From Raillietiella orientalis (taxonomy: Eukaryota), in the NCBI GenBank assembly GCA_036172245.1, contig JAYWIR010000073.1, positions 62,001 to 126,000 on the forward strand: a DNA stretch of 64,000 bases. Reading direction: 5' to 3'. The notes below the pieces were generated by a model that saw only the letters and a program-made list of their open reading frames with translations, was not told the origin of the DNA and ran no database searches. A program made the translations under genes and the position numbers. Below, piece by piece: positions 5,548 through 50,746 of the stretch (positions are counted from its first letter, which is position 1; each line of letters starts with the position of its first letter).

Positions 5548-7563
5548 TCACCTCTGGAACGGGGGCTGGCTTTCCAGAGCATCGGCTTTCGGAGTGACGA
5601 TGCAAGCGTACACAAAATTCCTCAGGCTCCTGTTGTCCAGGAAAATGGCTATCTTCTCGCTGCAGACGTAAGGCAGAGAGCAGTCCCTGATGACGGAACA
5701 GTGGAAAACCTTGCTGAACTCCTGCACCAGCTTATTCCTCTTGTTCCCTCTGTTGAACTGGTTCTCCATCATGGAGGCGTAGATCGGAAACAAGGCTTTG
5801 TATTTCTGCGACTCGAAGAACTCGGCGACGCTTTCGTTGGCGACGAACGAGGCCAGCTCGTTGCCTCGCTTCACCAGGATGACGTGGTACGAATCCTCTT
5901 CCTTCATCCTTGCGAGTTCGCCCTGACACTGAGTCCGGAACTCTTTCAGTCGCTCCAGCCCCAACCATCTCAGCAGCTGCATGTTTCTGTCCCTCACACG
6001 AAATCCCAAAAATTCCAAATGAGCAATGTGTCTCAGCAGGAGGTAGACAGCATCTTCCGAGGTACGGCAGCTACCTTGGAAGGTGAGCGGAGTAGGGGTG
6101 TGCAGCAGCGTTTTCATGCACACATCCAGCGGCGTTTTATTCTTGCCATCCACGGCGTTTACGTCCGCGTCGTTTTCCAGCAGCGTCAGAAGAGCTCTTA
6201 AGTTCGAGTTCGCGCAAGCAAGGTGGAGAGGCGTCGATTGGTCGTCATCTCTCGCTTCCACGTCAGCTCCGTAATCCAAGAGGAGCTTCAGCATTTTGTC
6301 GTTCCCATTCTTCGAGACCCAGTGGAGTGCGGTCGCTTTGTGATTGTCTTTAGCGTTGATATCGGCCTTGTGGTCCAGAAGGATCCTCACGAGTCTGGTG
6401 TTCATCTTGCTGGAAGCAACATGCAAGGCAGTCGCTCCACTCTTCATCATGGCGTTCACATCCGCATCGTAATCCAAAAGCAGCTTGATGAGCTGCTCGT
6501 TTCCAACCTTCGAGGCAATGTGAAGAGCCGTGGATCCGTCCTCGGTCACCTCTTCAATGTCCGCTCCGTAATCCAAGAGGAGCTTCACCGTTTTCTCGTT
6601 TTGGTATCTGGTAGCGATGTGGAGCGCAGTCGATTGACAGATCATAGCGCTGACGTCAGCTCCATGATCCAAAAGAAGCTTCACCAGTCCTTCGTTCGTC
6701 CTACTTGGAGAGGTTGCGTACCCGCACCGTTTATGGTGGCTTTCAGTGCCAATGACGTCTTCCTGGTACAAAAGACGTTCCATAAGGTTGTCGTCACTTG
6801 CGTTGTATGAAGCGAGGTGAAGTGCAGTCGTTCCGTCTTTGGTCTCGGCATTCACGTCGGCACCGCGATCCAGAAGAACCCTCGCGGCGGCTTCGTTACC
6901 CTTTAACGCGGCGATGTGCAGTGGGGTCAAGCCGCCCTCTTCCCTGGGGTCGACGGAAGCATGGTTGTTCAAAAGCAGCCTCACCACTTCCTCGTCCCCT
7001 CTGAGGGCTGCGAAGTGAAGTGGCACGTAAGTCCTCCACTTTTCCAGGGAAGCAGCCGAATCGCTGAAGGCTCCTTGTTTCAGGAGCTCCTCCACCGTTG
7101 CGCGAGATCCATTCTTTGCAGCAATGTGAAGAGGTTGCAGCCCACTGCTGTCCGCAACGTTCACTTGGGATCCACTTTCCAGGAGCAATCTTACGATGCC
7201 CTGGTTTCTCCTTTCTGTGGCGATATGAAGAGGAATCCTTCCACCCTCGTCCTCAGCATTTACGTCTGCGCCTGCATTCAGGAGCATTTCCACAGTCTGC
7301 AGATCCTCGACAGCGACAGCCAAATGGAGCGGCGTCTCAGTAGGTTCATCACTTGTTCTGTTGACTTTGCATCCGTACCTTAAAAGCATCTGTGACACAT
7401 CACAGTGGCCGTTTCTAAGAGCAATGCAAAGCAACTCGTATCCCTCACTCCAGGCCTCCCAGAGACTGATGTCTATGGAATCAACTATTTCTCTAATCTT
7501 CTCGATCTGAGCCCCGAGAACTGCCTCACACAATTCGCCCCACAGCTTCTCACTTCCTAACAT
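5548..7563 (-). CDS. Intronless ankyrin-repeat protein with C-terminal PRANC/F-box-like domain (paralog 1, ~671 aa)
   Basis: Over a dozen TPLH/TALH...LL.xGADVN repeats. The C-terminus has ELARMK...FPIYASMM...LPYVCSEKIAIFLDNRSL. The ATG at 7563 aligns with the paralog N-terminus; the ORF track extends to a GTG at 7662. Confidence 0.9.
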   Translation of the reverse strand: MLGSEKLWGELCEAVLGAQIEKIREIVDSIDISLWEAWSEGYELLCIALRNGHCDVSQMLLRYGCKVNRTSDEPTETPLHLAVAVEDLQTVEMLLNAGADVNAEDEGGRIPLHIATERRNQGIVRLLLESGSQVNVADSSGLQPLHIAAKNGSRATVEELLKQGAFSDSAASLEKWRTYVPLHFAALRGDEEVVRLLLNNHASVDPREEGGLTPLHIAALKGNEAAARVLLDRGADVNAETKDGTTALHLASYNASDDNLMERLLYQEDVIGTESHHKRCGYATSPSRTNEGLVKLLLDHGADVSAMICQSTALHIATRYQNEKTVKLLLDYGADIEEVTEDGSTALHIASKVGNEQLIKLLLDYDADVNAMMKSGATALHVASSKMNTRLVRILLDHKADINAKDNHKATALHWVSKNGNDKMLKLLLDYGADVEARDDDQSTPLHLACANSNLRALLTLLENDADVNAVDGKNKTPLDVCMKTLLHTPTPLTFQGSCRTSEDAVYLLLRHIAHLEFLGFRVRDRNMQLLRWLGLERLKEFRTQCQGELARMKEEDSYHVILVKRGNELASFVANESVAEFFESQKYKALFPIYASMMENQFNRGNKRNKLVQEFSKVFHCSVIRDCSLPYVCSEKIAIFLDNRSLRNFVYACIVTPKADALESQPPFQR

Positions 7564-8589
7564 GTTGGTTACCACCGAAACGCTGATGCAGTTCCAGATA
7601 AGAGTGAAAGTTCGTCGGAAGGAAAACTTCGACACGCGTGCCTCCGACAGCACGAAGCTCACAAGACCAAAGGCTCCTTTCAGCCTTGGAATTTAAGGCG
7701 ACGTGCAAAATAAGCGCAGTCAGATTTCGAAAAAAAAAAAAAACGTAACCTTAGGGCACGCCGGCGCGCAAGAGGTTCAAGACGCCAGCGATTCCCTCGT
7801 CTGCAAGTTCAGCGCTTCGTCGTGACGTTGCGCGCCAGAAATCGGATCTCTGTGAGGTCCCAGATGAATCCCTTCTCTGGGAGCTTTTGCTTCCTACGGA
7901 ATACGGTTGCCGGATCCCGGAGCGTATCTTCAGGAACAGTCGCAGCCAACTCGATGGCCTGCTTGGGAATCCGAGGCAAAAGAGGCGAGTGAAATGCATA
8001 CTCGCAGCCAACCCTTCCAGCGTGAAGAACCGTCACCACTGGGTCGCAAGTTCTCTCTGTGGCCACTTCCATTGTGCACGAAGCACTCGAAACTCGAAAC
8101 ACCACTTGCCTGCACGGCACCCACGAGCGAAAAGTGCTTCGCACTTCCATGGATCCTCCAAACCCCGAAGAACCACCGACTTCAACGTGAGCTTCCGTCC
8201 TGCATGGCTTCGCCCTTCTGATAGGCAGCTCCAAAAAACGCGACCTACGATGCAACAAAACCTCCCAACAGATGTGTCACCAGCTTCTGTGACGACCTTG
8301 GGCGGTGACCCATCACCACGTAATTACACACACAGCAGGCGTACTTTTTGAATGTCCATCTCGTCACCGACTTCCATCAGCTGATGAGTCCGTAATCCGG
8401 GAAGGGCAGAAATGCAACCATCCTACTCCCACCTGCCACGTCGCTCCCGGGAACCAGCTCGGCATTCATCCGCTCCGGGGTCACAAGTCAAACGAGTAGA
8501 CCGTACTAAAAGACTGCCACACTCAATGATACGCATACCTACTCTTCTCCAGTGCCCATCGAAACCTCGAAGGATCACAAAAACGGTAA

Positions 8590-9030
8590 AAAACATTTAC
8601 GTTTATTCCACACACGCTAATGTACGAATTTATTTTGACATACATAGTTATTCATATTTGTTAACATTCATGTGAACGCATATATTCAATCACATTTACT
8701 AACATATATTTTAATAATGTAAATAATAAGCTGTTGACTATATTATTGATATATATGGAAGATTATGAAAAATAAATGTATATGCTTATTATATACATAG
8801 ATAATGTGAATATGTATATATATAGATAGATGCATACATATATATATCGAAATGTAATTACATGCATATATAGAGAGACGCATCTATATATATTTCTCTG
8901 TACGTGTATTAATTGTACATGTATACATACATGTATTTATGCATGCATATACATGTATGTATGTATATACATATATTTATATATATATTTGCATACACAC
9001 ACGTGTATATATATTTATATTACTTTCCAT
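8590..9030. repeat. AT-rich TA/CA/TG low-complexity island
   Basis: Degenerate tatata/tacata/tgtata runs embedded in GC-rich sequence. Confidence 0.75.
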
Positions 9031-9449
9031 TTTCGGAGTGAACCGCCACACATTGAAGGTAGTGCTCTTCATCTTCCACTCTCCCTCGCCTTCCACTCTT
9101 CCTTCCTGGTCATCGAAGTTGCGTTACGAGGGATGCCACAGCAGGTTGCGCTCATCGGACGCCCGTAGGCTGCATTTCCGCGGCGTCTTCCCCTCCACCC
9201 AAGAGCTGCTCCTCTTCAGAAGGTTGTCGCAGGATTGGAGCGTCATCCGCCCGTCGTCCGGGCCGACGTGTCCATCCGATGGGTGTCGCGGGAGCTGCCT
9301 CTTTTATCGACATACATCTGTGGGATACACCACTTAACGGAGGACTGCTCGCTTCGTTGCCGGGGTCACACGTTCCCAAGGGTCCAACGACGACGGCCCG
9401 CATTTCTGCATCGACTCCTTTCCTGGGCTGCTGGTCCTCACGATCCTGG

Positions 9450-11750
9450 TACTTGGATACTCTCTGCTTCCCGACGATGCTGACGGCTCCTACTCCATCT
9501 TCAAAGGGGAGAAAAAACGTCCAGCATCACCATCCTGTTGCCCTTTTGCAGTACCAAATCTCGCCTCCGGGCTGAATGAAGCCCAGGAGCGCGCTGATTC
9601 TCAAACGCCACTTTCCATGTTGCTGCTGCTACGGTGGGTGGCTGCTGTTTCGATCTCGTCCACAATCGCGTCTTTCCGTGCCACGTGCAGTCGAGAGTGG
9701 CTCGTGCAGTGATCCGTGTCACGTCAGGCAACACAGGTCGTCTCCCAGGCCACAACGGAGGAACCATCTTCCCTCCTTCTGGCAGCTCTTCTTATGAGGA
9801 GCAGACTTAGCCTTGCGGCGTGGATGAAGCTGCAGTCCGCAACCTGGTGGTCGCCGTCTGTAATAAAACAGCTCGAAGCTCCGGTTCAGAGCATGTCTTC
9901 CCCTCGGCCCAGGTGCTCCTATACCGGGAGTCGCCATGACTCCTCGTGTTGTGCAGCAGCTCTTACGAAGGAGGAAAAGTTTCTCTTCGTGCTGATGTAA
10001 TCAGTCCTCTCCCCGACATGGATTGATGGTTCTTCTCGAAATTTCCGTACTGCTCCTGATCTTAACGAAGCTTCTCTCCCGATGCTGTCCCTAAACTTCG
10101 CACATCCCCACATATTCTGGAATGTGCAGTCCGACGTAAATTCGCGCAGAACATCCTCCGTGGGTGGCAAAAGAATTTCCTTCAACACCACCTCACAGAG
10201 GGTTTCATGGGCTCATGCCTTGACGGCACCATCAAGTAAGGGTGATGACCTGGAGCAGCTGTTCATGATGAAGGCATCAGCCTCATCTAACAGCTTCATG
10301 AATCCAAAACAGCCTCTTTTCCTCGCTTTACAGAGGTGTTCCTTCGCTTTGCAAATCGAGAGATGCAGCAATGTCTTCATCACCTGTTTTATTTTATCAT
10401 ATAGCTATTTCCGGTCCCCTGACGCATTTTTCCAGTCTCGTGGTGTACGAGACTGCGGGAAAAGAAGGTATCCATAGCATTGTTTTTTTTTGGCCAGGCT
10501 GAAAGATGACAACCGAAGATGCGTTCAGCTTAGGCGATGATGCTTTCCTTGGAAGCAGGAGTCTTGAGTACAGTGATACCTCGGTAATCGACGGTTTCGG
10601 AACTCATCAAACTCAGTACTCGCTTCATGTTGACGAGAAAAAATGCTTCGACACTCGGCGCATGTTCAGCACCCGACACCCCAATCTCATGATGAATAAG
10701 TGAATGCTTTCGTCTGATGATAGTTCGCGAACAGTGCCGAACACCTCCATAGAGTGCCGTTTCCACTCGTCACGAGTTCCGGAACGCTTTACCGACGAGT
10801 ACCAAGGTACAGGTATCCCTGTATTTCAGTCCCAACGGCCCTCCTAGGTACTTATAGATCTCTGATGTATTTCTTCTGGGAATTGAACCATCTCAAACCC
10901 CGAGAATTCTCTCCACAACAGAAAAGGCAGGAGCATCCGGAAGGATGAATTGCTAAACCGGACCTATCAAGTAGATCCTCAGAATGGAGGCAGCCTATTT
11001 CTTAGACCCTCTTCGGAATCCACAAGGATGACTAAGTCATCGGCATATCACATAAGGATATTCCTCGCAGTGAATCCCCCCGTTACACTCATGGCTGGTT
11101 CTGAGGCGAATTCTGAAGGGACCCTGTTCTACTCCCTTGCGCAGGTGGGGGAAAGGCCTCGTTCCATGCTCCTATCCCAGCTCCGTATTCTTAGCACCAT
11201 GATCTGCAGGATGGCGTTCCTAAGCACGGGTAGAGTCCACGAAAGCCTTTCCAAGATCCAAGTCCAAACCGTTCCAGCATTCCTCGATCGTCGACATGAG
11301 GCACTCAGTCGTGTTCGCGAGACAAAACTCCGACCAAGAGCCCCACCGGAAGGTAGCAATCCCTTCTGCTGGGGGACATGCGACCTTGCATTCCTGGATC
11401 CGTTCCTAGGTCCTGTCGTTAGGCATCTACTTAGTGTGAAGCCTGTTGCCAATAAAAACTGACTTCCAGCTGCTGGTCTCTTCGAACGAGGCAGAAGCCC
11501 TGGGGATTGAAATTGCTCCCGGACAGTTTCCGGAACCCCACTGGATTTCAGTGACAAACTGAACATGAGTATTGGAATGGTGACTTCCGCATCAATCGCC
11601 TTCGATTCGGAGGATGCAATCCCTTCTACTACGGGAAAGGAATCCTCCTCCCTACGCAACAGCATGGAAACCTCTTCTTGCGTAAAGGGAAACGCTTCCT
11701 GGGGGCAAATCTGGCCGCTTCTCTCCCAAGCAGCATTTTCGGCAGAGGCT
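9450..11750 (-). mobile_element. Degenerate RLE-type non-LTR retrotransposon (NeSL/Utopia/R2-like) relic
   Basis: Ordered minus-strand motifs across frameshifts: QKGLLP (~11360), DLGKAF (~11250), YADDLVI (YADD 11047-11036), YKYLG (10856-10842), a decayed zinc knuckle plus DAIVDEI (~9650-9750), and ENQRAPG..RRDLVLQKGNRMVMLDV (PD..D endonuclease, ~9520-9605). Ends approximate. Confidence 0.72.
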
Positions 11751-13214
11751 AATATCCGTTTCCTTGGTGATCCGCGGTTGATCATGGGAACGCTCCTCGG
11801 TGGCCTTCTCATCAGCCGAGCATCCGAGCTCTTGTTGGCCCGCAGTGGCTCGCACGGCCCTCCTTCGATTCGCACTGTGTGATTTCCAAATTGAGGATTT
11901 GTCGTGAGGGCCCACCGTCAGCTTCTCTGCACGTAGCTCTGGAAAGTTTTCTATTCGAAACATGGCGTGCCTTTTTCCAAGATGGAGTCGCGCAAAGCCT
12001 CGGAACCTCCCCGCTGTGTTCCCTCGTTGTCTGGCAACCGATGAAAGCGATTCTTCTCTTCCGAAGATTGCCAGGTAAAATTTCCATCTCCTGCTGTATC
12101 TCTTCCCCCTCTCCTCTCTTTTAGGTTTGGTGACTGTTTTTTGCTTGGAGATGACCATTCCTTTCCATCATTGCCTACTTTTCCATCAGAAACCAAAGAA
12201 GGCATCGACTCGCCTTCCTCAGATGCTCCATCTCTTTTTGAAGGATTTCATCTTGCATTCCAGTCGTCTCTTAGCTTCCGTTAGAGTACTGTGAATGTCA
12301 ATTACATCCTCTTCTGCAACCCAAGAGAGGAAGTACATTGTTCCAAGCAGCATTCGAAGGAGATGAAAGAGCAAAGAAGAAGACAAAGACAGAGAAGAAT
12401 ACACTTCCGATACATCCTCATCTTGATCTGAATCTGAAGATTTCTTAGGTTCCCACCCCTTGGGAACCTGACACCGAAGAGAGTGGCCAGTTGAGCAGCT
12501 GAAACGGCGAGAGATTCAGCACCTTCCGGACGCACGCGGTTGGAAGGCCACCTCGGCCGACACGTAGTTCCAGAGCATCTTGCACCGATGACGCAGCAGT
12601 ACGTTTCCCAAATGGTGGATCACTGGTCCCTGGGTAAGCTCGCGTCGTGAAGCTGCATCCTGCAGCACCCCAGCAGGTCAGCGAATACGCTGGGGAAGGA
12701 AGGGGGGGTGGAGTGGGGGGTGAGAAATGTGACCACGCTGGTCCCATGGTCAAATCCTGCTCCTTCAACGTTCTGCATTGTTGGACCACTCTTGGCCAGA
12801 CAAGGCCAGACTTCATCTCCTTCATCGAGGCAGACAGCAGAGCCTCCAGTCCAAAAGCAGAAATCGCCAGCGATGTCGGAACGGAATTCTGGGTGTCAGA
12901 GGAAAAATCTGCTGATTATCAACGCAACTCTCGTATCACGAGCGATGAGAGCGCCTGCGGCTCTCGCCTCGGCAGTCCCGGGATTCGAGGCCACTGAGAC
13001 ATCCTCCCGTTCTACCACTCCCCCAATGCAACCACCCCCTTGCCAGCACAAACCGACCCCAATGCAAGCACCGGTCCGTCAAACTGGCCGCCCCGATCCT
13101 CTTTGCTTCCCAGAGGCGTCCGCAACGGAAGATTCCGCCTTCTGCTGCCTCCAGCCTTCGTTTCAAGGCGGCCACGCCTCTGCGCTCTTCTCAGCACGTG
13201 TTCCCATGGCTTCC

Positions 13215-13700
13215 CAATATACATGTAAATGTTTGGACGTGTGAATACATGTACGTTTATGTGAATGCACACACTAATACACACACATACATATGAATAC
13301 ACATTTGTATGTATGCATGCACGCGCAAACATATATACGTACATTTTGACAACTTTCTAGTACACGCATTTTCACAAGTCGGATTTTCCTTTTCCGTTTT
13401 TTTATTTCGTTTGCTTTTTTGTTTTGCCCTATTGCTGCAGTCGCAATTATTTTTCATTTTGAAAAATTCGATACTCATATATTCATTTGATGTATATATA
13501 CACACATATGTGAAATTAACATTCATATATCATTTTTTATAGTTTTCAAGACATATGTGTATCAGTAATAAAATAAATAACTTACTGATCTTGTTCATGC
13601 TATGCTAAAGTTACCGCTAAAAATATGTATGCTGGTAAACACGAATAACTGTGTGCATCCAAACAAATTTGTGTATGAATCTGTGTAGAATAGGCACAGT
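13215..13700. repeat. AT-rich TA/CA/TG low-complexity island
   Basis: Same tacata/tatatg-type composition as 8590-9030. Confidence 0.7.
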
Positions 13701-15264: not shown

Positions 15265-15335
15265 CCCCGGGAGGGATTCGAACCCACGACGCCTGGTACG
15301 CCACGCGGCCGCCAGCGCGGCTCCGTCAGCTTGCG
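15265..15335 (-). other. tRNA-derived fragment / SINE head (not a functional tRNA)
   Basis: The minus strand reads GTCGTGGGTTCGAATCCC (T-arm/B-box), preceded by a weak A-box-like AGCTGACGGAGC. No full cloverleaf. Confidence 0.4.
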
Positions 15336-17149
15336 TTTCCGTACCTTCCAGTCAGCTGCATCTGCGAGAAGGTGGGTCAAGGACGGCTACTTCACTCTTC
15401 CGCAAGAGACCTACTGACTGCGGACGGCCGCTTGGAGTCCGCATCTCTGGAGCTCACGACCGCGGACCGCGCTCATTGGATCGAATCGACCTCTATCCCC
15501 CAACCAGTCTGACATCTTTGGAAGGCGACCATTCCAGAATGACGTATCGCTCCTTTCTCGCTCATTACTACGCCAATCCTGTCCTTCTCTGGTAGAGATT
15601 GACGAAGCGCTTGCGATCGTCACCGGCGACCGCCTTGGTGACCACGCACTAGCAACGCAAGCAAGTCGGGGCGTGTGGAATTTCAGCGGCTTCTTTGCTT
15701 TCTGCTCTTCCGCGAGGACCTGCAGCCCTTTAGCCGGATCAGCAACGCTCCACGATCTCCAGGTTTCCGGGTCTGCCTCCAGAGCCTCTACCTTGTTGCG
15801 TCTCATTCGGAGTCGGCTTCTGCTCTTTGGGAGCACCCAGCTGTCCCGTAGAAGATCGATGCAAGCGTTTTCTGACCTGACTGGTCGTTGGCTCGCTGAT
15901 GCCTAGTGGTAAAAAAAAAAAACTGATTACGGTGACCGGTCACTTCACGGAGGGGTTCCCTCGGGTTGACACCGGTCAGGCGGAAGCGTTTGTTTATCAA
16001 AAATGAACACGTGGAAAGGCGTTTGATCCCACCACGTGGCTTAAAACCACGCAAAAAACCCTGCCGGGAACTGGTGCGCAGACCGGCGAGAGGCGCCACG
16101 ACAGGAGAGACAAACAAAAAGAATAGAAAAAAAAAGGCAAAAAACATGCAGTCAGAAAGTGATGGGGATGAGGGGTCGGGGAGGGATCACTGCGTGCTGG
16201 AGGGCGTCCTCTGCATCCTTGTAAGGTTGTCGAAGAGTTTTGTTCCGAGACTTCCAAATGGGTCCATCTTGACGATGTTTTCAAGGAAAGGACAGCAAAA
16301 GAGATGGCTCCCCTGTTGTTCTGGCCTTTTCTGGCGCTGCTCCATGCAGCCGCGGTCCAGCCACGTGGACAGGAAGGTGTTGCTGCGGACGCGGACGGCG
16401 TGAGGGCATCGCGCAGGAATTGGCGCTTGAAAACGTCTCTCGCGTTGCCTCCGGGGCTTCCAAAAGTCAGTACGCGGTGCACAGAGTCCCCTCGAGGCTG
16501 ATCAACAATTCGAAAGAACTGATGTCAGCTCCAATTTGCAAACGTGGAGATTCGGAGAACGTGGAGAAGAAAACAGGCACTGGTGGAGCGGTCACCAACT
16601 GAAGATAGTGCCTGCAAGCAAGGAATCATGGCAAAAGGCCATGGTCTTCCTCACTTCATGAGGGTCACGGGGAGACTTGAAAGTGGATGATTCAGAGGCC
16701 AGAAAATAAGGTTTGGCAACGGAGAACAGTGGTAGTTGCCGCAGAATGCGGAAGTGATGGGAAGATGCAGCCACAGGACCCACGAGCTCTGGAAGGGTCG
16801 TAGGAGCTGACATCTGCGATGAAATGAAGGGTAAGCGGAGAGAAGATGACGCACTCGAGGAGGCTGCCAGTAGCCACGGGGTCCTGAAAAGGAAGGCCTG
16901 TTAGCGGCGGGCACAACGAGGAGGTGGAGGAGGAGACCGACCCGCGGACTAGCTCGGGATGATGACCTCCCGATGGATTGGCCACGGGGGAAGGCCGGGC
17001 GGCTTCAGACTGAACGGTTGAACAGGTGGCAGCCGGGATGGCACTGCCAGGCATGCGCAGCCAGGGAATCCCGACTTCGCGTTGGCCGGCTCTGCGCCAG
17101 GATTGACCGGCGGGGGGGCCCGCGTGCAGAGCGAAAACGAAGATGGAGG

Positions 17150-20100
17150 TGCGGGCGGGAGTGACTGGAGGGAAGGGCAGCGCCATACAATCTCTTGGGA
17201 CGGACCACCGTTGCCCTCTTTGCAACGAGCAACGCGATAAGAAGGGCAAACCGATGCGGAACACAGCAGAGCTCGCGACGACCATCGTCCGAGCAGTCAT
17301 CGACAGGGAAACGGAGATCAGGTAGAGCGTCCCCCTTGAGTTACCGCTGCATGTTGAAGAAGGTGGCGGATGGCCCCAAGCGAGTGGACAGTCCACCGGA
17401 CTCCATTGCCCCTCGACCAATAGGAAAAGATTTTCTTTCAAATTGAACGCAGAAAGTGGTACTTGGTGACTTGTGGAGTGCTGGGTGCAGGAATTCTCGA
17501 CAAAGTGTCTGCAGAAAGATGCGTGATTGCGCTGTTTGTTTCAAAGTTGCTTCCCAAATTCACCCCTCTACAGGTCGGACCGGGAACTTGGCATTTTGCT
17601 TAAGGACCCGAAAGACCTTGGAAATTCATTTCCTTCCTCGTCAACCAAAAGGACAAAATCTACGCTGTACCAAATTTTTTTTTTCTCGAGTTTTGAGACA
17701 TTGCTCCGTTCCAGATTCTTTTCCCACATGCTATTTTTCTGAACCGAACATTCTGTCAAGGTTTAACAGGTGCCTTCCAGGAGACCTCACCTACTCAGGC
17801 GGGTGCAGAAACGCAAGACAAGGAGGCATATGGGAAACCGCTACTGCCCATCTGAGCAGCCAGTTCCTTGACTACACAAATCATTCCCAGGATTTTTCGT
17901 CAGGCACGTCTCACCACAATCCCAAATGAGCTTCCTCAAGACACTGATGCTACCCGGCTCGTATTCCACTGCTGACCAACCATTTTCTTCCGCTTCTGCA
18001 TCGGTTCTCAAGCATGATTGCACGAAACATCCATCCTTGCACGCACGCAACACGCACACACACAAACACACATGTGAGCTTTCTTGTCCCGGCTTGGCCT
18101 TGACATTGGAGATGTCAAGCCTGTGGTTTGGCCACGTACAGCTTGAGGTCTACTGGCAGTGGTCAGGGAATGGCTGCCTGCTCCGAAAATCGTTCTTCTA
18201 TCGCGTCTGTGATGTCTGGAGCGACTCGTTCTTCCTACATAAGTGCGAGAACAGAAATCTAGGAATAATTAGCCTTCCATACTTGTCCTCTTGCGAACGC
18301 GCACAAGGAACACAAAGTGTGACCCTCGTAAAGCCTCCCTATTTGGAAGAAATGAACACTAAGGTTCACGCCACTGGAGTTGCCGAAACACATGTCCGTA
18401 GGCCAACGTGCATAGCAATGCGTCCGCAAAGCGCCAAGCAGAGTGCGAAACCTCGTGGAAGACTGTCTCAAGGTTTCGCGGACTTGGCATGTGCTCGATA
18501 ATGCCTAGGAGCAAGGAGTCGTGGCGGGATGAACTGGCCACGGGGACTGTTCACCCCGTGAGGTCCCCTCGGCAGACCTGGAAGCGGATGACACGGAGGT
18601 CAGGAACGAGGATTCGCAACGGCGAACAGTGGCAGTTGCTGCGGAATGCGTGTAGAAAGACGGCACCGTCTTAAGAAACAACCAGTGGTCACGTGCTGCA
18701 TGAATCAAGACTATTAGGAAATTTCTTAGGAAGCCACACAATCCAGGCATGCTCCCGGAAGACGAGGAGATTTTGACTTCCTGGAGTGACCTTTATTTTC
18801 AGTGATGGACCCTCTTCAGAGAAACGGAGCTTTCACTGTGGATGTCAACCGAAGACCGGCGCTCCGAGGAAAGCTGATGTGCTGCGATCTCTTTTTCTGT
18901 GCTCTTAGGGAAGCGGAAGGCGTTCTGGAGAGAAGAGGAAGATGCCATTCTTGTCGGAGACGGAACCGTAGTGGTTTACTTCGAACTCGTGAATTTATCA
19001 GTCGTATTGTGCGGCCAGAGAATATTCGTTTCCAGGGAAATGCCCACTCCTTCATTCTGGATCTTCACTGATATCTCGGGAGAATACCAACGTACCACAT
19101 GTACTCGCTTGTCACATATCTAAGTTGCCTGCTGTGTCTCAATGTTTGTTGGCACGACAACATCTTCACTTTAGCTACAGGCATCACCCTTTTCTGTGAT
19201 ATGATCGGAGCAACTCTCGCTTCCTGTCTTTCGCCAAATGTTCCTTGGCTTCTTCGAAAACTGTGGTGAATCTTGGCGCCTGGAAGCGCATCTCCTCCGT
19301 GCCAAAGGTGCTGCAAGAAACCTGGAGCTGCGTCCTAGTTTGTTTTGAAGGGAGAGATCAAGAAGGACGAAAGGAGGGAATCGCATTGCCTCATCTTGAG
19401 GATTCCCCAAGATGCGAAGACATGAAGCATGATGAAGACATGAAGCACAAGCGCTGCTTCCAGCTGCTGAGTATCCTCTTTGCGCCTTATTTTTTGTCGC
19501 TGCGACCGAAAGTTGATTGACAGCACTGGTGATCACCTAAAGCGGCTGTTGGCGCATCTTGCTTTGCCCGTGGACCATAGTCTGCCTGTGGTCAGAGTGC
19601 ATGGTGCTCTGGGTGTGTAAGACTTTCTGAAGCCTCCAGGATGAAGTGAATCCCTGGATGAATCCTTATTCATCCGAGATGAACTCCTTAAATCATTCTC
19701 ATTGCCATGGGGTGTGTGCAACCAAATTCTCTCTCCTTTTTTTTGTCTTTTCAAGACTCATGGAGTGCTTGAAGGATAATAGCGGATGATGAAAGCGAAT
19801 GGAGCCTGCGGCTCTCTTATAGCCGCTAAATAAGGACGGGTCACCTCGCTGTTTTCCTAAAACAGAGTCAGGTCCTTAAGGAATTATAGGGCTGATATCG
19901 TGCAACCTTCAGACGAACTTTCTTTCCTATTTTAAATAGAAGAACCTCAAAGACTCTTCCGAACATGATGCTTCCAGAGGAGCCATTGAGAAAAACGGGC
20001 GAATCCGATTGCTTGTGCTTGGCCTCGAACACGGAAGGTGTCAAACATAAAATGATACAGTTGCTGAAGCCAGCAGACATTGGGATCAGGAAAATCATCC
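17150..20100 (+). mobile_element. Possible very decayed R2-like non-LTR relic
   Basis: Only weak motifs: CPLC (~17210), LLRAKGAARNL (~19300) and GV..Q.LSP-like (~19710-19740). No clean YADD found. Confidence 0.25.
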
Positions 20101-21219
20101 TGAATAAGAAGAGGAAACTCGTGTGGCCGTAAACAACACGACGGCAAGAGAACCATGGCACCCTTGGGTTGTTTGCAGGCGTTTCTCGGGTAAACCTCTT
20201 GCAAACTCACGTCAGTCTTCCCGGATTTCCCATGTTCCCTTATTCAGGAAGATGCGAGTCCTGAGGGGAAAACATGCACCTCGAATGACTGCTGTCCAGC
20301 ACGATCCCATGAGCGCACGTGCGAGCAGCAGGGTCCTCTCTGGTGCTGGCTCGCGCCAGCACAGTTGGAATGGGGCGCTGACTGCTCCGTTTCCATCGCC
20401 GCAGTTGGTCTTTGCGGGAATCTCCTTGCCTTCCTCGGGAGAAATTCTGTGGCAGTCCGAAAAAGGTTCTTTGCTCGCTCGAAGAGCACCTTTGACTGCG
20501 CAGGTTGCACCCAAACGAAGATTCTGCTCGTATCTTTTGCAAGTCTGGAAGGGAAACGGAGATGCGCCGCATTGCGCGCCGCGTGAAGGCCCTCGCGGGC
20601 ACGCGTTCCGAGTTCGCTGGAGCGCTGAGCACGTGACCCGAGAAAGTGCCCTTCGCGATCGATAAAAAGACCGTTCGCACGGAAGTCCCGCGAATCCGCT
20701 GGGGTCGAAAAATTGTTTCCTAAATCCGGTTCCTGCAGCTGCAGTTCTTTTGCATGCAAATTCCTCTTAGCCTTCCGGAAAGTTGGCGGCAGTTCGTCCT
20801 GTGACCTTGAGCGAAGAAAAGGAAAGTGTGTCCTATCACGATGGCCAGTAAGTGTGGGATGCAGAGAGCGTGCGCTTGAAATTTCGCCGCCGTGGAATGG
20901 CGGGAAAGGTCTTCAGTTGTCCTAGCGAAGAGGCGTTTCCTTGACACCAGTTACCGACCCACGAACCGACCGAGAAGCCAACACCGGAATTTCTTGTGCG
21001 GCAGCGAGAAAGAGGGTGGCCTTCTTTTTTGTTCCGCAAGATGCTTCATACGGCGGTCGCCGTAAAGGGAATGTAAAGTCCGCCATCGCTTTCTGGTCTG
21101 TCTTCCCACGAGATACATCTACACTACTCGAGGGAAACTGCATCCAGTTACACGAGCTGGGCTGCCGCGTGTTTCCTTTTTTTCCTTGTTGAGATCGAAA
21201 TGCCAGTGACGCAAGCAAC

Positions 21220-23634
21220 ATGGAAAACCTGGAGCTACTGGAAGAATTAAACGTAGCCATACGCGAGGGAATCGTCGGGAAAGTAAGGGAAATCATCCAC
21301 TCCGTTGGTCTCCGCTACTCGGAATCGTGGTGCGAAGGCTACACGCTGCTCTGCGATGCTCTCCAGCACCACAGCTACGAGGTTGCCGAGTTGCTTTTGG
21401 AATACGGGTGTGCGGTCAACAGCGACACCCCCGGGTTTTCCGGCACGCCGCTCCACTTTGCCGTTCGCTCCGGGAACGCCTCAATGACGGAGATGCTCTT
21501 GAAGAGGGGCGCCCGCGTGGACGTCCTGAACGAGAGGTTGGCGAGCCCCCTGCACCTGGCCGTGGGGAATTCGGAACGGAAGATTGCCAAGATGCTTTTG
21601 GAGGCCGGAGCGTTGGCGGACTGCGTAAACGACAACGGGATGGCGCCGATCCACATCTCCTCTCAGAGGAGATCCTCCCCGCTCGTGGAACTCCTGCTGA
21701 AGTACGGGGCGAGCCCCGACTTCAGCTGCACGTCGGAGAAGCGGCCGGGGTACACCCCGCTCCACTTTGCCACCCTAAAGGGGAGCGCAAGGACGATGGG
21801 GCTGCTGCTTAGCTACGGTGCTCCCGTCGGCTCCAGGGCCGCGAGCGGAGCGACCTCCCTCCACCTGGCCGCCCTGAAGAGGAACGAGCAGATCTCGAGG
21901 CTGCTGCTGGAGAACGGGGCCGAGGTCGACGCCACGTGCAATTACGGGACGACGGCGCTCCACTGCGCGGCCACCAACTCGAACAAGGATGTCGCGCTCT
22001 ATCTGCTGGAGCACGGCGCCGACGTGAACGCCAGGTGCCCGATCGGCAGGCCTGCCGTCCCGATGGTCGACAAGCCGGAATACGAGATGTTTGTGGACCT
22101 CCTCTCGAAGCACAGCGCGGAGACCCACAGCGCCGACCCCAGCGAAGGTTACGACCTCGAGAAACACCTGTCGGAGTTCAAGGCCGATATCAAGAACGGG
22201 TACAAGAGCGAGAGGATCCTGCTCCGCCTCATCAAGAAGTACGAAGATTACCACCTGGGGGCTCTCCTCATGCGCCGCGGCGGTGCCACAGAGAGCCGCA
22301 GGGGAAGGTGCGGGACGACCGCGCTCCACATCGCCAGCGAAACCGGCAACCTGGTGGTGGCCAGCGTCCTGCTGGAGCACAAGGCCGACGTGAATGCGAT
22401 CGAGGGCGACGGGCTCACCGCGCTCCACATCGCGGTCAGGCAGAGGAACCCGAACCTGGTCCGGCTGCTCCTGGAGCACGGCGCTGACGTCCAAATCCGG
22501 AATCCAAACGGGATGACGTCGTTCCGCATCGCCGTTCAGTCCAAGAACTTTGAAATAACGAAACACCTGCTGGAGTTCCACGCCGACGTGAACGAGAGGT
22601 TCGGGGACGGAAACGCCCTCCACTTCGCCATCAACTTCAGGAACCTCAAGATGGCGAAGCTCTTCCTGGACCACGGGATCGACGTCAATGCCACGAATTA
22701 CAGAAACATGACCGCGCTCCACATGGCCACCCAGATGTACAACCACGAGGCGGTGAAGCTCCTGCTGGATTACAAGGCCGACGTCAACAGCAGGAACATC
22801 AACGGGTCGACCCCGCTCCATATCCTCGCCAACGCGGGCGTAATGTCTTCCATGTCCAGCGTGTCGGCTCTGCTTCGGATTCTCCTGGATTCCGGCGCCG
22901 AAATCGATGCGAAGGACAACGTCGGATCGACTGTCCTCTACAACGCGGTCTGGGAGATGAACCCGGATATGGTCATGATCCTGCTGCAGGAGGGCGCCGA
23001 ATTCAACGCCGTCAACAACACCGGAGAGACTATCCTCGCCTTGGCCAACAGGCTCTGGGAGCACTATTCGCAGGCGCAGGCTGTGGGACGCGAGAAAGCG
23101 CTGTCCGCTCTCGAGTGCATCATCACGATCCTCACACGCTTCATCGTGAGAATGCGTTTCTGCGGCATCTACGTGAGCAGGAGGAACATGGAGGCTTTTG
23201 AGATCCTCAACGAGGTCTGTCTCCTGCGGAGCTACACGTCTGAGTGCGAAAAAGAACTTCAGAGGATGAAGTCGACGAAGATCGGCGACAACGTCTCCTT
23301 CTCGGACATATTGGTTAAGCATGGCAACGAGCTCGCGTTCTGCACCGGGAACGCGAGCATCATCCGGTTCTTCCGAGAGGAGCACTTGACCCTCACAGAC
23401 AGATTTCCAATATACGGCGCTCTGGTAGAAGCTCAGTTTGTAAAAGGAACGGAGAGGAGAGAGCTGCTCGAAGCGTTCTTCCCCGTTTTCGATCACTGTT
23501 TCAGGGACTGCCCCATCTTGCCGCGCGTCTGTACCAACAAGGTATCGAGCTTCCTGGATGAAGAAGATTTGAAGCATTTCGTGAATGCTTTGGAATCCAT
23601 CGATCTGCATAAGTCCAGCTCAGAAGATTCATAA
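21220..23634 (+). CDS. Intronless ankyrin-repeat protein with C-terminal PRANC/F-box-like domain (paralog 2, 804 aa)
   Basis: Many ankyrin repeats. The C-terminus has CEKELQRMK...FPIYGALV...LPRVCTNKVSSFLDEEDL. The N-terminus (REII.S.....E.W.EGY.LLC.AL) is homologous to paralog 1. Codon third positions are strongly G/C. Confidence 0.93.
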   Translation: MENLELLEELNVAIREGIVGKVREIIHSVGLRYSESWCEGYTLLCDALQHHSYEVAELLLEYGCAVNSDTPGFSGTPLHFAVRSGNASMTEMLLKRGARVDVLNERLASPLHLAVGNSERKIAKMLLEAGALADCVNDNGMAPIHISSQRRSSPLVELLLKYGASPDFSCTSEKRPGYTPLHFATLKGSARTMGLLLSYGAPVGSRAASGATSLHLAALKRNEQISRLLLENGAEVDATCNYGTTALHCAATNSNKDVALYLLEHGADVNARCPIGRPAVPMVDKPEYEMFVDLLSKHSAETHSADPSEGYDLEKHLSEFKADIKNGYKSERILLRLIKKYEDYHLGALLMRRGGATESRRGRCGTTALHIASETGNLVVASVLLEHKADVNAIEGDGLTALHIAVRQRNPNLVRLLLEHGADVQIRNPNGMTSFRIAVQSKNFEITKHLLEFHADVNERFGDGNALHFAINFRNLKMAKLFLDHGIDVNATNYRNMTALHMATQMYNHEAVKLLLDYKADVNSRNINGSTPLHILANAGVMSSMSSVSALLRILLDSGAEIDAKDNVGSTVLYNAVWEMNPDMVMILLQEGAEFNAVNNTGETILALANRLWEHYSQAQAVGREKALSALECIITILTRFIVRMRFCGIYVSRRNMEAFEILNEVCLLRSYTSECEKELQRMKSTKIGDNVSFSDILVKHGNELAFCTGNASIIRFFREEHLTLTDRFPIYGALVEAQFVKGTERRELLEAFFPVFDHCFRDCPILPRVCTNKVSSFLDEEDLKHFVNALESIDLHKSSSEDS

Positions 23635-23950: not shown

Positions 23951-24636
23951 GCGTCGCGGGTTCGAGTTACTTTTGGGAGATGACTCTGGTTGGCCTCTAT
24001 TCATTCGGGTGCGGCGCTAGTAGCGGTTCAAACCGGTTGCCTCGATGAGTGACCGGGACAATGGAAGTCGACCCTCCGGGTCCTTCCAGGAATCAAGGAG
24101 TGTGAGTTCCCCTCCGGTTGTGCAAAGGAGAGTACTCCTCATTCTGGGGGGACCCATCGTGGAGTAGGTGTGTCGCCACCTCTCTAGAGTTCAGAGAAGC
24201 GTGCCGCTTCTATCGGAGAGCTCCACCCTTTAGAGACATTTCGGAAGCGTTTTTTCGGGGTTTTCTTAAGAGGAGGAACAGGAGCGATTCCCTTGCGAGA
24301 GGGTCCCTTCGAAGAATTCCAAGAGCCGGCATCTTTGGGGTCCCTCTGGAGGAAACCAGGGAGGAAGTTCCCCTCGGGGATCCCTCTCCAGGCGTGAAAG
24401 GAACGGATTCCCTTCTCCGGAGCCCTTTTCTGAATTCATAGGATGGTTTGCTACCGGAACACCCCCCATCTTGAGGAATTCCACGCACCCTGGGTGGTGT
24501 GGAACAGCGTTAAAGAGAGTGCGTGAGACTCCTCCAGGGGAGCGACGGTTCTCGAGGTGCTCAAGAGAACCAAGGAAAAGCTGGAAGGAAAACAGGGAAG
24601 ACAGGAAAGAACCCACAGGGATTCTTATTCCTCCTG
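23951..24636 (+). repeat. ~700-bp repeat, copy B
   Basis: Inverted homolog of 4269-4984. Confidence 0.85.
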
Positions 24637-50722: not shown

Positions 50723-50746
50723 TCTTAATGACACTGGTTTTCACAT

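What the first reader, a model, noticed from the sequence alone, without database searches (positions are those of the whole stretch)
5548..23634. Intronless ankyrin-PRANC/F-box paralogs in an animal genome: candidate laterally acquired SCF adaptors
Seen: two single-exon, GC-rich, intact ORFs with shared N-terminus, ankyrin array and C-terminal LP..C..KI/V..FLD...L motif, whereas neighbouring host genes are AT-rich with introns. Established: ANK plus C-terminal PRANC/F-box is typical of poxviruses, Orientia, and Wolbachia/phage WO, where studied members bind Skp1/Cul1; Nasonia PRANC genes are attributed to lateral transfer. Inference: a domesticated, diversified endosymbiont- or virus-derived ubiquitin-ligase adaptor family, kept intact amid decayed TEs.
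Basis: partly seen in the sequence, partly recalled or inferred. Interest (0 to 1): 0.75.

Follow-up and report, generated by a model that had tools for sequence, protein, structure and literature searches.

The report
Phage-WO-type ankyrin-PRANC gene pair in animal
Two intact, intron-free genes in an animal chromosome are full-length relatives of an ankyrin-PRANC gene carried by the Wolbachia phage WO, a kind of bacterium-to-animal gene sharing already known from wasps and other insects.

Summary
ORF A (5548-7563, minus, 671 aa) and ORF B (21220-23634, plus, 804 aa) are intact single-exon ankyrin genes sharing an N-terminal cap, 12-14 ANK repeats and a ~170-aa tail with the motif LP..C..K[IV]..FLD...L.

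Their own Pfam PRANC scores are below threshold (about 15 bits; cutoff 25.8). A profile of the two tails still finds 1,152 cluster representatives, and 59 of 72 scanned hit PRANC. The predicted tail fold matches poxvirus ANK/PRANC proteins.

Both proteins resemble phage WO gwv_1092 ("ankyrin repeat with PRANC domain protein") along their length; B aligns with it end to end (E 5e-108). The tail occurs in 28 of 60 Wolbachia genomes, in 0 of 289 other Rickettsiales sampled, and patchily in insects plus Artemia.

The neighbouring Mov10l1 gene shows the host is an animal, probably not an insect.

A and B are mirror copies in an old inverted duplication, with saturated dS and dN/dS about 0.26, so both were kept by selection. 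Their GC3 (0.64-0.82) is far from Wolbachia's GC (0.31-0.33), so any transfer is ancient.

Unsettled: the direction and number of transfers (AU test p 0.25), Skp1 binding and expression. The "decayed TEs" claim was not confirmed. This is a new member of a known kind.

The parts
5548..7563 (-). ORF A: intact single-exon gene, 671 aa, with N-cap, ANK array and PRANC-type tail
   Evidence: It aligns with a Wolbachia homologue of gwv_1092 from residue 1. Chance of an open frame 3e-14.
7324..7563 (-). ORF A N-terminal cap (aa 1-80), shared with ORF B, with insect family members and with the Wolbachia/WO protein
   Evidence: 42.5% identity to residues 7-86 of the Wolbachia ORF in L001. 36-44% identity at or near the N-terminus of 8 of 12 named family proteins compared (insects); the other 4 matched internal repeats only or more weakly.
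6115..7443 (-). ORF A ankyrin-repeat array (approximate limits, aa ~41-483)
   Evidence: Pfam Ank, 12 stretches, E 1e-85. Internal 86-nt repeat family D2.
5551..6093 (-). ORF A C-terminal tail (aa 491-671), extended PRANC-type domain
   Evidence: Pfam PRANC is the only hit, 14.7 bits, E 0.04. Local family HMM 174 bits. 35% identity to Wolbachia P0282, E 1e-28.
5623..5676 (-). ORF A F-box-like motif LPYVCSEKIAIFLDNRSL (aa 630-647)
   Evidence: It aligns with the family column block LPxxCxEKIxSYLSxxDL.
21220..23634 (+). ORF B: intact single-exon gene, 804 aa, same architecture as ORF A
   Evidence: A single collinear HSP, residues 13-796 against 14-924 of phage WO gwv_1092, E 5e-108. Chance of an open frame 1e-12.
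21220..21459 (+). ORF B N-terminal cap (aa 1-80)
   Evidence: 54% identity to residues 20-87 of the Wolbachia ORF in L001. 41-53% identity at or near the N-terminus of 8 of 12 named family proteins compared.
21337..23055 (+). ORF B ankyrin-repeat array (approximate limits, aa ~40-612), with a non-ANK insert around aa 280-360
   Evidence: Pfam Ank, 14 stretches. 78-nt repeat family D1 with 99-nt spacing. The alignment gap against A lies at this place.
23089..23625 (+). ORF B C-terminal tail (aa 624-802), extended PRANC-type domain, nine predicted helices
   Evidence: Pfam PRANC 15.4 bits, E 0.025. Family HMM 190 bits. AlphaFold2 pLDDT 86.1. Foldseek matches to poxvirus ANK/PRANC models. tblastn hits only phage WO among 50,697 phage records.
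23518..23571 (+). ORF B F-box-like motif LPRVCTNKVSSFLDEEDL (aa 767-784)
   Evidence: It lies in the last two helices of the model (H156-165 and H168-182 of the tail).
4269..4984 (.). Non-coding segment downstream of ORF A; inverted copy of 23951-24636
   Evidence: 77.7% identity over 722 nt in inverted orientation, coordinate sum 28,905. 1-nt indels and no clear codon periodicity.
23951..24636 (.). Non-coding segment downstream of ORF B; inverted copy of 4269-4984
1..195 (.). Outer inverted-repeat arm, 100% complementary to 28681-28875; it may extend beyond the window start
   Evidence: The coordinate sum of 28,876 gives the same symmetry axis (~14.45 kb) as the inner pair.
28681..28875 (.). 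Outer inverted-repeat arm, partner of 1-195

Best explanation
The two ORFs are real, selectively maintained host genes of the ankyrin-PRANC family, in the subfamily shared by Wolbachia/phage WO (type gene gwv_1092 of WOVitA1) and arthropod nuclear genomes.

Most likely history: one full-length gene passed between a Wolbachia-like endosymbiont (or its phage WO) and an ancestor of this animal, more probably from bacterium to host. It adapted to the host's local GC-rich composition and was then duplicated in inverted orientation. Both copies have since diverged under purifying selection.

Most likely mechanism (inferred, not shown): the ANK solenoid binds a target protein. The C-terminal helical PRANC tail, ending in a truncated F-box-like LP...I..L...DL motif, docks onto Skp1/Cullin-1. 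The proteins would then act as substrate adaptors of the host's own SCF ubiquitin ligase.

Shown here: gene integrity, architecture, family membership by homology and fold, distribution, and selection. Inferred: the transfer itself, its direction, Skp1 binding and expression.
For: Integrity: the ORFs are open with chance probabilities of 3e-14 and 1e-12.

Selection: dN 0.58 against a saturated dS of ~2.2 (pN 0.40, pS 0.71) over 661 aligned codons.

Family:
- PRANC is the only Pfam family hit by either tail.
- The two-tail profile finds 1,152 representatives at E<=1e-3 and 272 at E<=1e-10.
- The tail lies within 40 residues of the C-terminus in 146 of the 149 rows kept: 147 of the 150 listed hits plus the two window proteins.
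- 59 of 72 scanned hits match PRANC at E<=0.01, and 37 of 72 reach the gathering score.
- The family's invariant and near-invariant columns (P117, N98, F116, G130, R133) are kept in both tails.

Fold: the model has pLDDT 86.1. Of 50 listed BFVD matches, the 32 that carry names are all poxvirus proteins, mostly named ankyrin or PRANC proteins, with TMq up to 0.65.

Phage WO link:
- B aligns collinearly with gwv_1092 over residues 13-796 against 14-924, E 5e-108, and with the Wolbachia ORF in L001, E 3e-110.
- A starts with the same MLG and aligns from residue 1.
- B's tail hits 3 of 50,697 phage records, all phage WO.
- gwv_1092 lies next to the ANK-TPR gene gwv_1093, as described in PMC5062602. 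The same pair occurs in Wolbachia genome G237.

Distribution:
- 28 of 60 genomes of the Wolbachia genus match.
- 8 of 301 in the order sample match. All 8 are in that genus, so 0 of the 289 others match.
- All 16 of 30 looked-up clusters that carry an organism name are arthropods, in six orders: Hymenoptera, Coleoptera, Siphonaptera and Hemiptera, plus Neuroptera and the crustacean Artemia.

Host context: a metazoan Mov10l1 gene lies on the same contig.

Not a bacterial contaminant: ORF GC3 is 0.64-0.82, against Wolbachia loci at GC 0.31-0.33.

Function by analogy: Orientia Ank-PRANC proteins pull down Cullin-1 and Skp1, and poxviral ones are cited as doing so (PMC4148323, passages).
Against: - Direct Pfam PRANC scores (14.7 and 15.4 bits) are below the 25.8 cutoff, and neither window tail hits a Pfam F-box model at E<=10.
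- In the tail tree the window pair is unplaced inside a polytomy, and its own pairing has only SH-aLRT 84.
- The AU test does not reject Wolbachia monophyly (p 0.246). Interleaving, and therefore repeated transfer and its direction, is not demonstrated.
- PMC5062602 notes that the WO PRANC domain is more similar to invertebrate than to bacterial sequences, and it considers animal-to-phage transfer.
- The family now spans several insect orders and a crustacean, which weakens 'patchy' as an argument.
- No Wolbachia or insect PRANC protein was seen to bind Skp1 in the passages read.
Confidence: 0.6

Rival explanations
1. The family is an old, vertically inherited arthropod (or wider animal) gene family with many losses. 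Wolbachia or phage WO captured it from a host, so the window's genes are native rather than laterally acquired.
For: The AU test does not reject one Wolbachia clade (p 0.246). PMC5062602 reports that the WO PRANC domain is closer to invertebrate than to bacterial sequences and lists animal-to-phage transfer as a route. ANK repeats and F-box-like motifs are eukaryote-type modules. Members occur in Hymenoptera, Coleoptera, Neuroptera, Siphonaptera, Hemiptera and Artemia.
Against: In the tail tree a well-supported (SH-aLRT 99), diverse Wolbachia-only clade of 14 rows stands apart from the mixed clade. The tail is in 28 of 60 Wolbachia genomes, often in several copies. The window genes have no introns and keep the bacterial-type ORF from the same start, MLG. 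Pers and Lynch found significant hits outside a few insect lineages only in Rickettsiales and poxviruses (PMC6161386, passages).
Confidence: 0.2
2. The proteins are ANK-PRANC family members, but the tail no longer works as an SCF-docking F-box. They act as plain ankyrin scaffolds, or use the tail for another partner, as suggested for Nasonia CLANKs in Toll/Dorsal patterning.
For: The window motifs depart from the family consensus, with V/C/S where canonical F-boxes have E/I/L. There is no Pfam F-box hit on the window tails. Solved F-box structures were not recovered by fold search. PMC6161386 describes CLANKs integrated into developmental networks without shown SCF binding.
Against: The tail, including L-P and the I/V, L and D-L positions, is conserved between two paralogues whose synonymous sites are saturated. 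Relatives give weak Pfam F-box/F-box-like hits on the same last ~28 residues; P0014 reaches the 20.5-bit cutoff. Orientia and poxvirus PRANC tails bind Skp1/Cul1.
Confidence: 0.25
3. The ORFs are recently dead or never-expressed relics, or bacterial or assembly contamination, rather than working host genes.
For: No expression evidence was obtained. The 1-30 kb block differs sharply in composition from the rest of the window.
Against: Both long frames are intact with pN well below pS. Composition is unlike Wolbachia, with GC3 0.64-0.82 against GC 0.31-0.33. Identity to any Wolbachia protein is only 29-36%. No bacterial gene lies nearby. The diverged palindrome arms are unlike a fold-back read artefact.
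Confidence: 0.05

Closest known systems
Phage WO gwv_1092 (WOVitA1 eukaryotic association module) and its Wolbachia chromosomal homologues, 'ankyrin repeat with PRANC domain protein'
   Same: The whole architecture is collinear: the same N-terminal cap from the first residues, an ANK array, and a ~170-aa helical tail ending in LPxxCxEKIxSYLSxxDL. B against gwv_1092 gives E 5e-108 over residues 13-796, and the tails are 34-36% identical.
   Different: The window genes are encoded in an animal contig, are GC3-rich (0.64-0.82 against about 0.32 GC), are only 29-36% identical, and are shorter (671 and 804 aa against 946). There is no adjacent ANK-TPR gene, transposase or phage gene.
Insect nuclear ANK-PRANC genes, including Nasonia CLANKs (Pers and Lynch 2018, PMC6161386, passages read; the Nasonia genome paper is known here only through that text)
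   Same: Host-encoded ANK proteins with PRANC or cryptic-PRANC C-termini related to Wolbachia proteins, diversified by duplication. The N-cap and tail are shared with Lasius, Halictus, Temnothorax, Chrysoperla and Ctenocephalides proteins.
   Different: CLANKs are defined as chalcid-wasp lineage-restricted and mostly carry introns. The window genes are intronless. Their host's Mov10l1 groups with no insect. Identity to any insect tail is at most 43%.
Poxvirus ANK/F-box (PRANC, Pfam PF09372) host-range proteins
   Same: ANK array plus C-terminal PRANC. The predicted tail fold matches avipox, parapox and other poxvirus ANK proteins over ~140-180 columns. The proposed adaptor logic is the same.
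   Different: No significant sequence similarity was seen directly. Only 1 BFVD match reaches E<=1e-3. These are viral genes that act against the host rather than host genes.
Orientia tsutsugamushi Ank F-box effectors
   Same: Bipartite ANK plus C-terminal truncated F-box-like PRANC in a Rickettsiales bacterium, with Cul1/Skp1 binding shown (PMC4148323).
   Different: The extended-tail profile found no match in the 289 non-Wolbachia genomes of the order sample, so the Orientia tails belong to a different, more distant PRANC branch. They are secreted bacterial effectors.
Cellular F-box proteins, and ANK-SOCS-box (ASB) proteins
   Same: A cullin-RING substrate adaptor built from a repeat domain plus a short helical box. 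The motif aligns weakly with the FBXW7 and KDM2B F-boxes (E 1.2-1.6, not significant).
   Different: The box is C-terminal and truncated. No Pfam F-box or SOCS-box hit was found. No fold match to solved F-box structures was found.

Membership tests
Pfam PRANC (PF09372) domain family | The sequence scores at or above the curated gathering threshold (25.8 bits) on the PRANC model | tested here: not met
   Tails alone score 14.7 bits (E 0.04) and 15.4 bits (E 0.025). The whole proteins give no PRANC hit at E<=1. PRANC was nevertheless the only family hit by either tail.
Pfam PRANC (PF09372) domain family | Demonstrable homology to proteins that do pass the PRANC threshold | tested here: met
   The two-tail profile retrieves proteins of which 59 of 72 hit PRANC at E<=0.01 and 37 of 72 reach at least 25.8 bits. 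B aligns end to end (E 5e-108) with gwv_1092. The near-identical Wolbachia G237 copy of gwv_1092 scores 32.7 bits on PRANC.
Pfam PRANC (PF09372) domain family | The domain lies at the C-terminus, directly after an ankyrin-repeat array | tested here: met
   A tail is aa 491-671 of 671, and B tail is aa 624-802 of 804. ANK arrays lie upstream.
Pfam PRANC (PF09372) domain family | Fold like poxviral PRANC regions | tested here: met
   The model has pLDDT 86.1. Of 50 listed BFVD rows, all 32 named rows are poxvirus proteins, mostly named ankyrin or PRANC proteins, and 18 rows are unnamed. Probability 0.94-1.00, TMq 0.28-0.65, best E 9.4e-4.
Pfam PRANC (PF09372) domain family | Binds Skp1/Cullin-1 through the terminal F-box-like motif | not testable with these tools
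This needs wet-lab work or the host proteome.
Wolbachia / phage WO gwv_1092-type ANK-PRANC subfamily (extended ~170-aa tail plus N-cap) | Full-length collinear similarity including the N-terminal cap and the extended tail | tested here: met
   B's tail hits only phage WO among 50,697 phage records.
Wolbachia / phage WO gwv_1092-type ANK-PRANC subfamily (extended ~170-aa tail plus N-cap) | Located in a Wolbachia chromosome or prophage, next to the ANK-TPR gene (gwv_1093 type) | tested here: not met
   The window copies lie in an animal contig with a Mov10l1 gene and have no ANK-TPR, phage or IS genes nearby. They are homologues of the subfamily, not prophage genes.
Nasonia-type CLANKs (chalcid lineage-specific ankyrin genes) | Restricted to Chalcidoidea and clustering with chalcid sequences | tested here: not met
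   The window pair does not cluster with Copidosoma, Eretmocerus or Trichogramma rows. The host's Mov10l1 is not insect-like.
Canonical cellular F-box proteins (PF00646 / PF12937) | Significant match to an F-box model | tested here: not met
   No F-box hit on the window tails at E<=10. Only weak sub-threshold F-box hits appear in some relatives.
Canonical cellular F-box proteins (PF00646 / PF12937) | Three-helix F-box fold superimposable on solved F-box structures | tested here: inconclusive
   Foldseek against the PDB gave a best E of 0.9. VIA-align wide gave only generic helical matches, Z<=6.3. The PDB sequence profile search gave FBXW7 and KDM2B F-box pieces at E 1.2-1.6.

The most novel reading that the evidence does not exclude
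This is an independent, ancient capture of the phage WO gwv_1092-type ANK-PRANC gene by a fast-evolving, non-insect animal lineage. The gene has been kept for a very long time as a mirror-image pair under purifying selection, inside a palindrome whose non-coding flanks are still being homogenised. If so, domestication of phage-WO 'eukaryotic association module' genes reaches well beyond the insects in which it has been described. It would also offer a simple two-gene system for asking what a host does with a PRANC adaptor.
Probability: 0.3. Interest if true: 0.6.

Novelty: new member of a known kind. Interest (0 to 1): 0.4.

Why it matters
ANK-PRANC genes shared between Wolbachia or phage WO and insects are a textbook case of inter-domain gene flow, and in Nasonia they have been wired into embryonic patterning.

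This locus adds a well-preserved case with four features. It is full-length and matches the named phage gene gwv_1092 from the first residues to the tail. It is strongly ameliorated in composition. It is duplicated. It shows a clear signature of purifying selection. The host does not look like an insect.

If the host lineage and expression are confirmed, the locus would widen the known host range of this domestication. It would also provide two diverged paralogues for testing whether host-encoded PRANC tails still recruit SCF ligases.

It does not reveal a new kind of system.

Tried and rejected
- **Word-indexed search with B's tail** against proteins of similar total length: 0 hits. This reflects the method's sensitivity and is not evidence of absence; the exhaustive search then found 1,152.
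- **ESM Atlas on B's tail:** only sub-0.9 hits to unnamed fragments, not informative.
- **Whole genome of the window:** none held, so copy number, orthologues and TE families could not be checked.
- **Sequencing runs:** none was listed and no RNA holder was listed. Expression and assembly could not be examined, and read laying was not used.
- **PDB sequence searches:** A1 gave 0 hits. A2 gave three insignificant hits, E 0.45-1.6.
- **Foldseek PDB and VIA-align wide:** nothing specific.
- **Pattern scans of viral contigs** with A1 and with P0282: no confirmed relative. This is weak evidence, because the patterns are narrow.
- **NCBIfam:** only generic ankyrin similarity to Legionella Ank effector models, MzaA and trp, all far below their cutoffs. 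Rejected as membership.
- **Rfam on the whole window:** no family at gathering score.
- **Tandem Repeats Finder:** nothing at score 80 or more.
- **TE idea:** Pfam on 31 other ORFs of 120 aa or more within 1-30 kb, out of 46 non-ANK ORFs scanned in the window, found no transposase, RT or integrase. Shorter decayed fragments were not examined.
- **Endogenous large virus or TIR element:** I considered whether the GC-rich palindromic block could be one and rejected it for lack of any viral or transposon domain.
- **Host placement:** the Mov10l1 tree left the host on a long unplaced branch.
- **Earlier scan notes:** nothing on this genome or on look-alike sequence. The 8 notes shown of 48 found by words concern giant-virus, phage or Micavibrio tails and did not bear on this locus.
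- **Literature:** 'PRANC'+'mite' (74 papers, 15 listed) and 'PRANC'+'crustacean' (19 papers, 15 listed) showed no paper on PRANC genes in mite or crustacean nuclear genomes among those listed. A looser six-term query was uninformative.

Full report
**1. The observation**

Under the standard code the region holds two long, uninterrupted ORFs:
- ORF A, 5548-7563 on the minus strand, 671 aa.
- ORF B, 21220-23634 on the plus strand, 804 aa.

At their own base composition the chance of such frames staying open is about 3e-14 and 1e-12. Pfam finds 12 and 14 ankyrin stretches, with Ank E-values of 1e-85 and 2e-83.

The two proteins are 31-36% identical by BLASTP and 39.6% identical over 661 aligned codons. 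They share their first ~80 residues and a ~170-residue C-terminal tail that is 38% identical.

tblastn finds no third copy in the window.

**2. Is the tail a PRANC domain?**

On the whole proteins Pfam reports no PRANC or F-box hit at E<=1. On the tails alone, PRANC (PF09372) is the only family hit. It scores 14.7 and 15.4 bits (E 0.04 and 0.025), under the 25.8-bit gathering score. Taken alone this test fails.

The family evidence is much stronger:
- A profile of the two tails, run exhaustively over 1.84 billion representatives, finds 1,152 proteins at E<=1e-3 and 272 at E<=1e-10.
- I kept rows whose domain spans at least 100 model positions. That gave 149 rows: 147 of the 150 listed hits plus the two window proteins. 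The domain lies within 40 residues of the C-terminus in 146 of them.
- I scanned 72 of the 150 against Pfam, leaving out the longest ones and everything after P0080 to fit the size limit. Of these, 59 of 72 hit PRANC at E<=0.01, 37 of 72 reach the gathering score and 13 of 72 have no PRANC hit. Nearly all carry ANK arrays upstream, and several give weak F-box or F-box-like hits on the last ~28 residues.
- In an 18-row tail alignment, the invariant or near-invariant columns (P117, N98, F116, G130, R133) are kept in both window tails.

**3. Fold**

AlphaFold2 on B's tail with that alignment gives a confident all-helical model of nine helices (mean pLDDT 86.1, pTM 0.74).

Against predicted viral structures, 50 matches are listed:
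- Probability is 0.94-1.00 and TMq is 0.28-0.65 over roughly 120-200 alignment columns.
- Only one match reaches E<=1e-3.

Solved structures give nothing specific: Foldseek's best E is 0.9, and VIA-align wide gives only generic helical matches at Z<=6.3. The PDB sequence profile search gave three insignificant hits. Two are F-box segments (FBXW7 and KDM2B) aligned on the LP...L...DL motif.

The tail therefore shares a fold with poxviral PRANC regions. F-box identity at the structural level remains inconclusive.

**4. The closest relatives are Wolbachia / phage WO proteins, along the whole length**

- The named best hit of the tail profile is a Wolbachia protein, P0282 (E 4.9e-69).
- The window tails score slightly better against it (35% identity, E 1e-28 and 3e-32) than against any named insect protein.
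- Its full-length form in a Wolbachia-genus MAG (L001) shares the N-terminal cap at its extreme N-terminus, with 42-54% identity over the window proteins' first 80 residues.
- B aligns in one collinear HSP, residues 13-796 against 14-924 (E 3e-110).
- A starts with the same MLG and aligns over residues 1-479 against 1-452 at 36% identity, and again through the tail.
- Among 50,697 annotated phage records, B's tail hits exactly three, all Wolbachia phage WO (36.3% identity, 83% coverage, E 2e-25).
- In WOVitA1 the gene is gwv_1092, 'ankyrin repeat with PRANC domain protein'. It lies next to gwv_1093, 'ankyrin and tetratricopeptide repeat family protein'.
- B against gwv_1092 directly gives E 5e-108.
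- The same gene pair, with Hsp20 and IS66/IS110/DDE_3 transposases, is found in the complete Wolbachia genome G237, and there the gene scores 32.7 bits on PRANC.

This is the PRANC gene of the phage WO 'eukaryotic association module' discussed in PMC5062602 (passages read).

**5. Distribution**

With the 18-row profile:
- 28 of 60 genomes in the genus of the Wolbachia handle match, with up to 7 places per genome.
- In a 301-genome sample of the order, 8 match. By comparing handles, all 8 are among the 12 genus members in that sample, so 0 of the 289 others match. This is 'not found in those searched', and Orientia-type tails may simply be too distant for this profile.

Among 30 clusters looked up by name, 16 carry an organism and all 16 are arthropods: Lasius (2), Halictus, Lasioglossum, Leptopilina (2), Copidosoma, Eretmocerus (2), Trichogramma, Photinus, Ceutorhynchus, Ctenocephalides, Bemisia, Macrosteles and the branchiopod Artemia. 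The other 14 of 30 come from unnamed metagenome or Logan contigs.

One search adds Temnothorax, eight Chrysoperla proteins and two more Eretmocerus proteins. Many of these lie on chromosome-sized contigs.

**6. Phylogeny**

In a FastTree of 149 tails the two window tails are each other's nearest rows and are at most 43% and 38% identical to anything else.

I then built an IQ-TREE of 58 tails: 2 window, 18 named arthropod, 18 unnamed and 20 Wolbachia.
- A and B pair with SH-aLRT 84.
- They sit in a clade (SH-aLRT 99) containing all arthropod and unnamed rows plus 6 Wolbachia rows. The other 14 Wolbachia rows form a separate clade.
- The gwv_1092-type Wolbachia rows are the nearest to the window pair by path length.
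- Inside the mixed clade the window pair is part of a polytomy.

An AU test does not reject holding all Wolbachia rows together (delta lnL 15.9, p 0.246). The tail alone therefore cannot show repeated transfer or its direction.

**7. Host and context**

ORFs at 46909-50740 (minus strand) carry, in order, the S1-like, MOV10 Ig-like, beta-barrel, AAA_11 and AAA_12 domains. The 327-aa exon is 48-53% identical to Mov10l1 of brachiopods, molluscs, echinoderms, cnidarians, chelicerates, a sponge and vertebrates. The two insect sequences in the sample, both MOV10-type, reach 42%.

In a tree it falls inside the Mov10l1 clade (SH-aLRT 99) but on a long, unplaced branch. The contig is therefore metazoan, from a poorly sampled, fast-evolving lineage that is probably not an insect. 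I did not go further.

Composition:

| Sequence | GC | GC3 |
|---|---|---|
| ORF A | 0.53 | 0.64 |
| ORF B | 0.59 | 0.82 |
| 2-kb flanks of the ORFs | 0.48-0.56 | n/a |
| 1-30 kb without the ORFs | 0.522 | n/a |
| 31-64 kb | 0.381 | n/a |
| Mov10l1 exons | 0.34-0.39 | 0.25-0.32 |
| Wolbachia loci | 0.31-0.33 | n/a |

The genes therefore match their local GC-rich block, not Wolbachia. That excludes contamination or a recent insert, and it means any transfer is old.

No TE, phage or bacterial domain was found in the 31 other ORFs of 120 aa or more scanned from the 1-30 kb block. 'Amid decayed TEs' is unconfirmed.

**8. Duplication and selection**

Inverted repeats tie the two genes together:
- 4269-4984 matches 24636-23951 at 77.7% over 722 nt, with an 88% core.
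- 1-195 matches 28875-28681 at 100%.
- Their coordinate sums are 28,905 and 28,876, so both pairs share one symmetry axis near 14.45 kb. ORF B lies at roughly the mirror position of ORF A.

The genes are thus the two arms of an inverted duplication. The conserved flank shows no coding signature.

Between the coding sequences, synonymous sites are saturated (pS 0.71, dS ~2.2) while pN is 0.40 (dN 0.58). The ratio is about 0.26, and it is imprecise because of the saturation. The duplication is therefore ancient and both copies were kept under purifying selection.

It follows that the 78-100% identical flank segments are younger than the gene duplication, through gene conversion or later insertions. 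This is unexplained.

**9. Mechanism**

By analogy, the ANK array would bind a substrate and the PRANC tail would dock on Skp1/Cullin-1. Orientia Ank-PRANC proteins pull down Cul1 and Skp1, and those lacking the tail do not. Poxviral ones are cited as doing the same (PMC4148323, passages).

For Wolbachia/WO and insect members I saw no binding data in the passages read. Pers and Lynch (PMC6161386, passages) show that Nasonia relatives function in dorsoventral patterning. I put Skp1 docking at roughly even odds for these two proteins.

**10. Verdict**

- The reading 'ANK-PRANC paralogues related to Wolbachia/WO in an animal genome' is supported.
- 'Laterally acquired' is likely, but its direction is unproven.
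- 'SCF adaptor' is inferred only.
- The TE and gene-specific-GC arguments do not hold.

The phenomenon is known from the Nasonia PRANC/CLANK genes and from proposed transfers in Pseudomyrmex, Bemisia, Ceratina and Microplitis. This is a new member of a known kind. It is of moderate interest because of the end-to-end match to gwv_1092, the age and selection signal, the palindromic arrangement, and a host that is probably not an insect.

Noticed in passing
window 4269-4984 with 23951-24636, and 1-195 with 28681-28875: The non-coding flanks of the two genes are 78% (core 88%) and 100% identical in inverted orientation about one axis (~14.45 kb). The genes between them have saturated synonymous sites. 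The flanks must therefore be much younger than the gene duplication, through patchy gene conversion or later symmetric insertions. The outer arm starts at base 1, so it may extend beyond the window.
   Followed up: partly
window 21775-23610 (-): A 611-codon open frame runs antisense to ORF B. This is most likely a by-product of B's GC3 of 0.82 (few stop codons on the opposite strand) rather than a gene. It was not tested further.
   Followed up: no
window ~30000-31000: There is a sharp compositional boundary. 1-30 kb is 52% GC with CpG observed/expected 0.90, and 31-64 kb is 38% GC with CpG observed/expected 0.65. Apart from the two ANK genes, no ORF of 120 aa or more scanned in the GC-rich block had a Pfam match.
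   Followed up: partly
window 46909-50740 (-): A Mov10l1-type RNA helicase gene is split over at least four open frames (S1-like, Ig-like, beta-barrel, AAA_11, AAA_12). Profile positions 42-192 of AAA_11 are not covered by the two large frames, so a small exon or a frame change lies in the 248-bp gap 47893-48140. It sits on a long branch in the Mov10l1 tree.
   Followed up: partly
window 30820-31620 (-): An open frame carries the C-terminal half of an FtsJ-like methyltransferase domain (E 3.7e-15). It is probably one exon of a host rRNA/tRNA or cap methyltransferase gene lying right at the compositional boundary.
   Followed up: no
window 54074-55426 (-): A 450-codon open frame encodes a Ser/Gln/Pro/Tyr-rich low-complexity sequence with no Pfam match. 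It lies in a stretch of strong GC skew (0.25-0.34).
   Followed up: partly
window 44054-44311 and 45377-45634: A 258-nt direct repeat at 98.4% identity, with copies 1.3 kb apart, lies in the AT-rich half. It could be the ends of a small mobile element or a local duplication.
   Followed up: no
window ~5400-5417 (-) and ~23695-23710 (+): Each gene is followed by an A-run of roughly 11 bases. A's lies about 131 nt after the stop and is fused to an AATAAA. B's lies about 60-75 nt after the stop. They may be polyadenylation-site contexts, or possibly remnants of a retroposed copy. The positions are approximate.
   Followed up: no
L042 (Wolbachia genome G237, C1:508500-528400) and L043 (KX522565.1): In the chromosomal copy, IS66-, IS110- and DDE_3-type transposase genes and further small ANK genes lie a few kb beyond the adjacent Hsp20 and hypothetical genes on one side of the gwv_1092/gwv_1093-type pair. 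In the phage record the gene pair sits beside the recombinase and baseplate and tail genes.
   Followed up: partly
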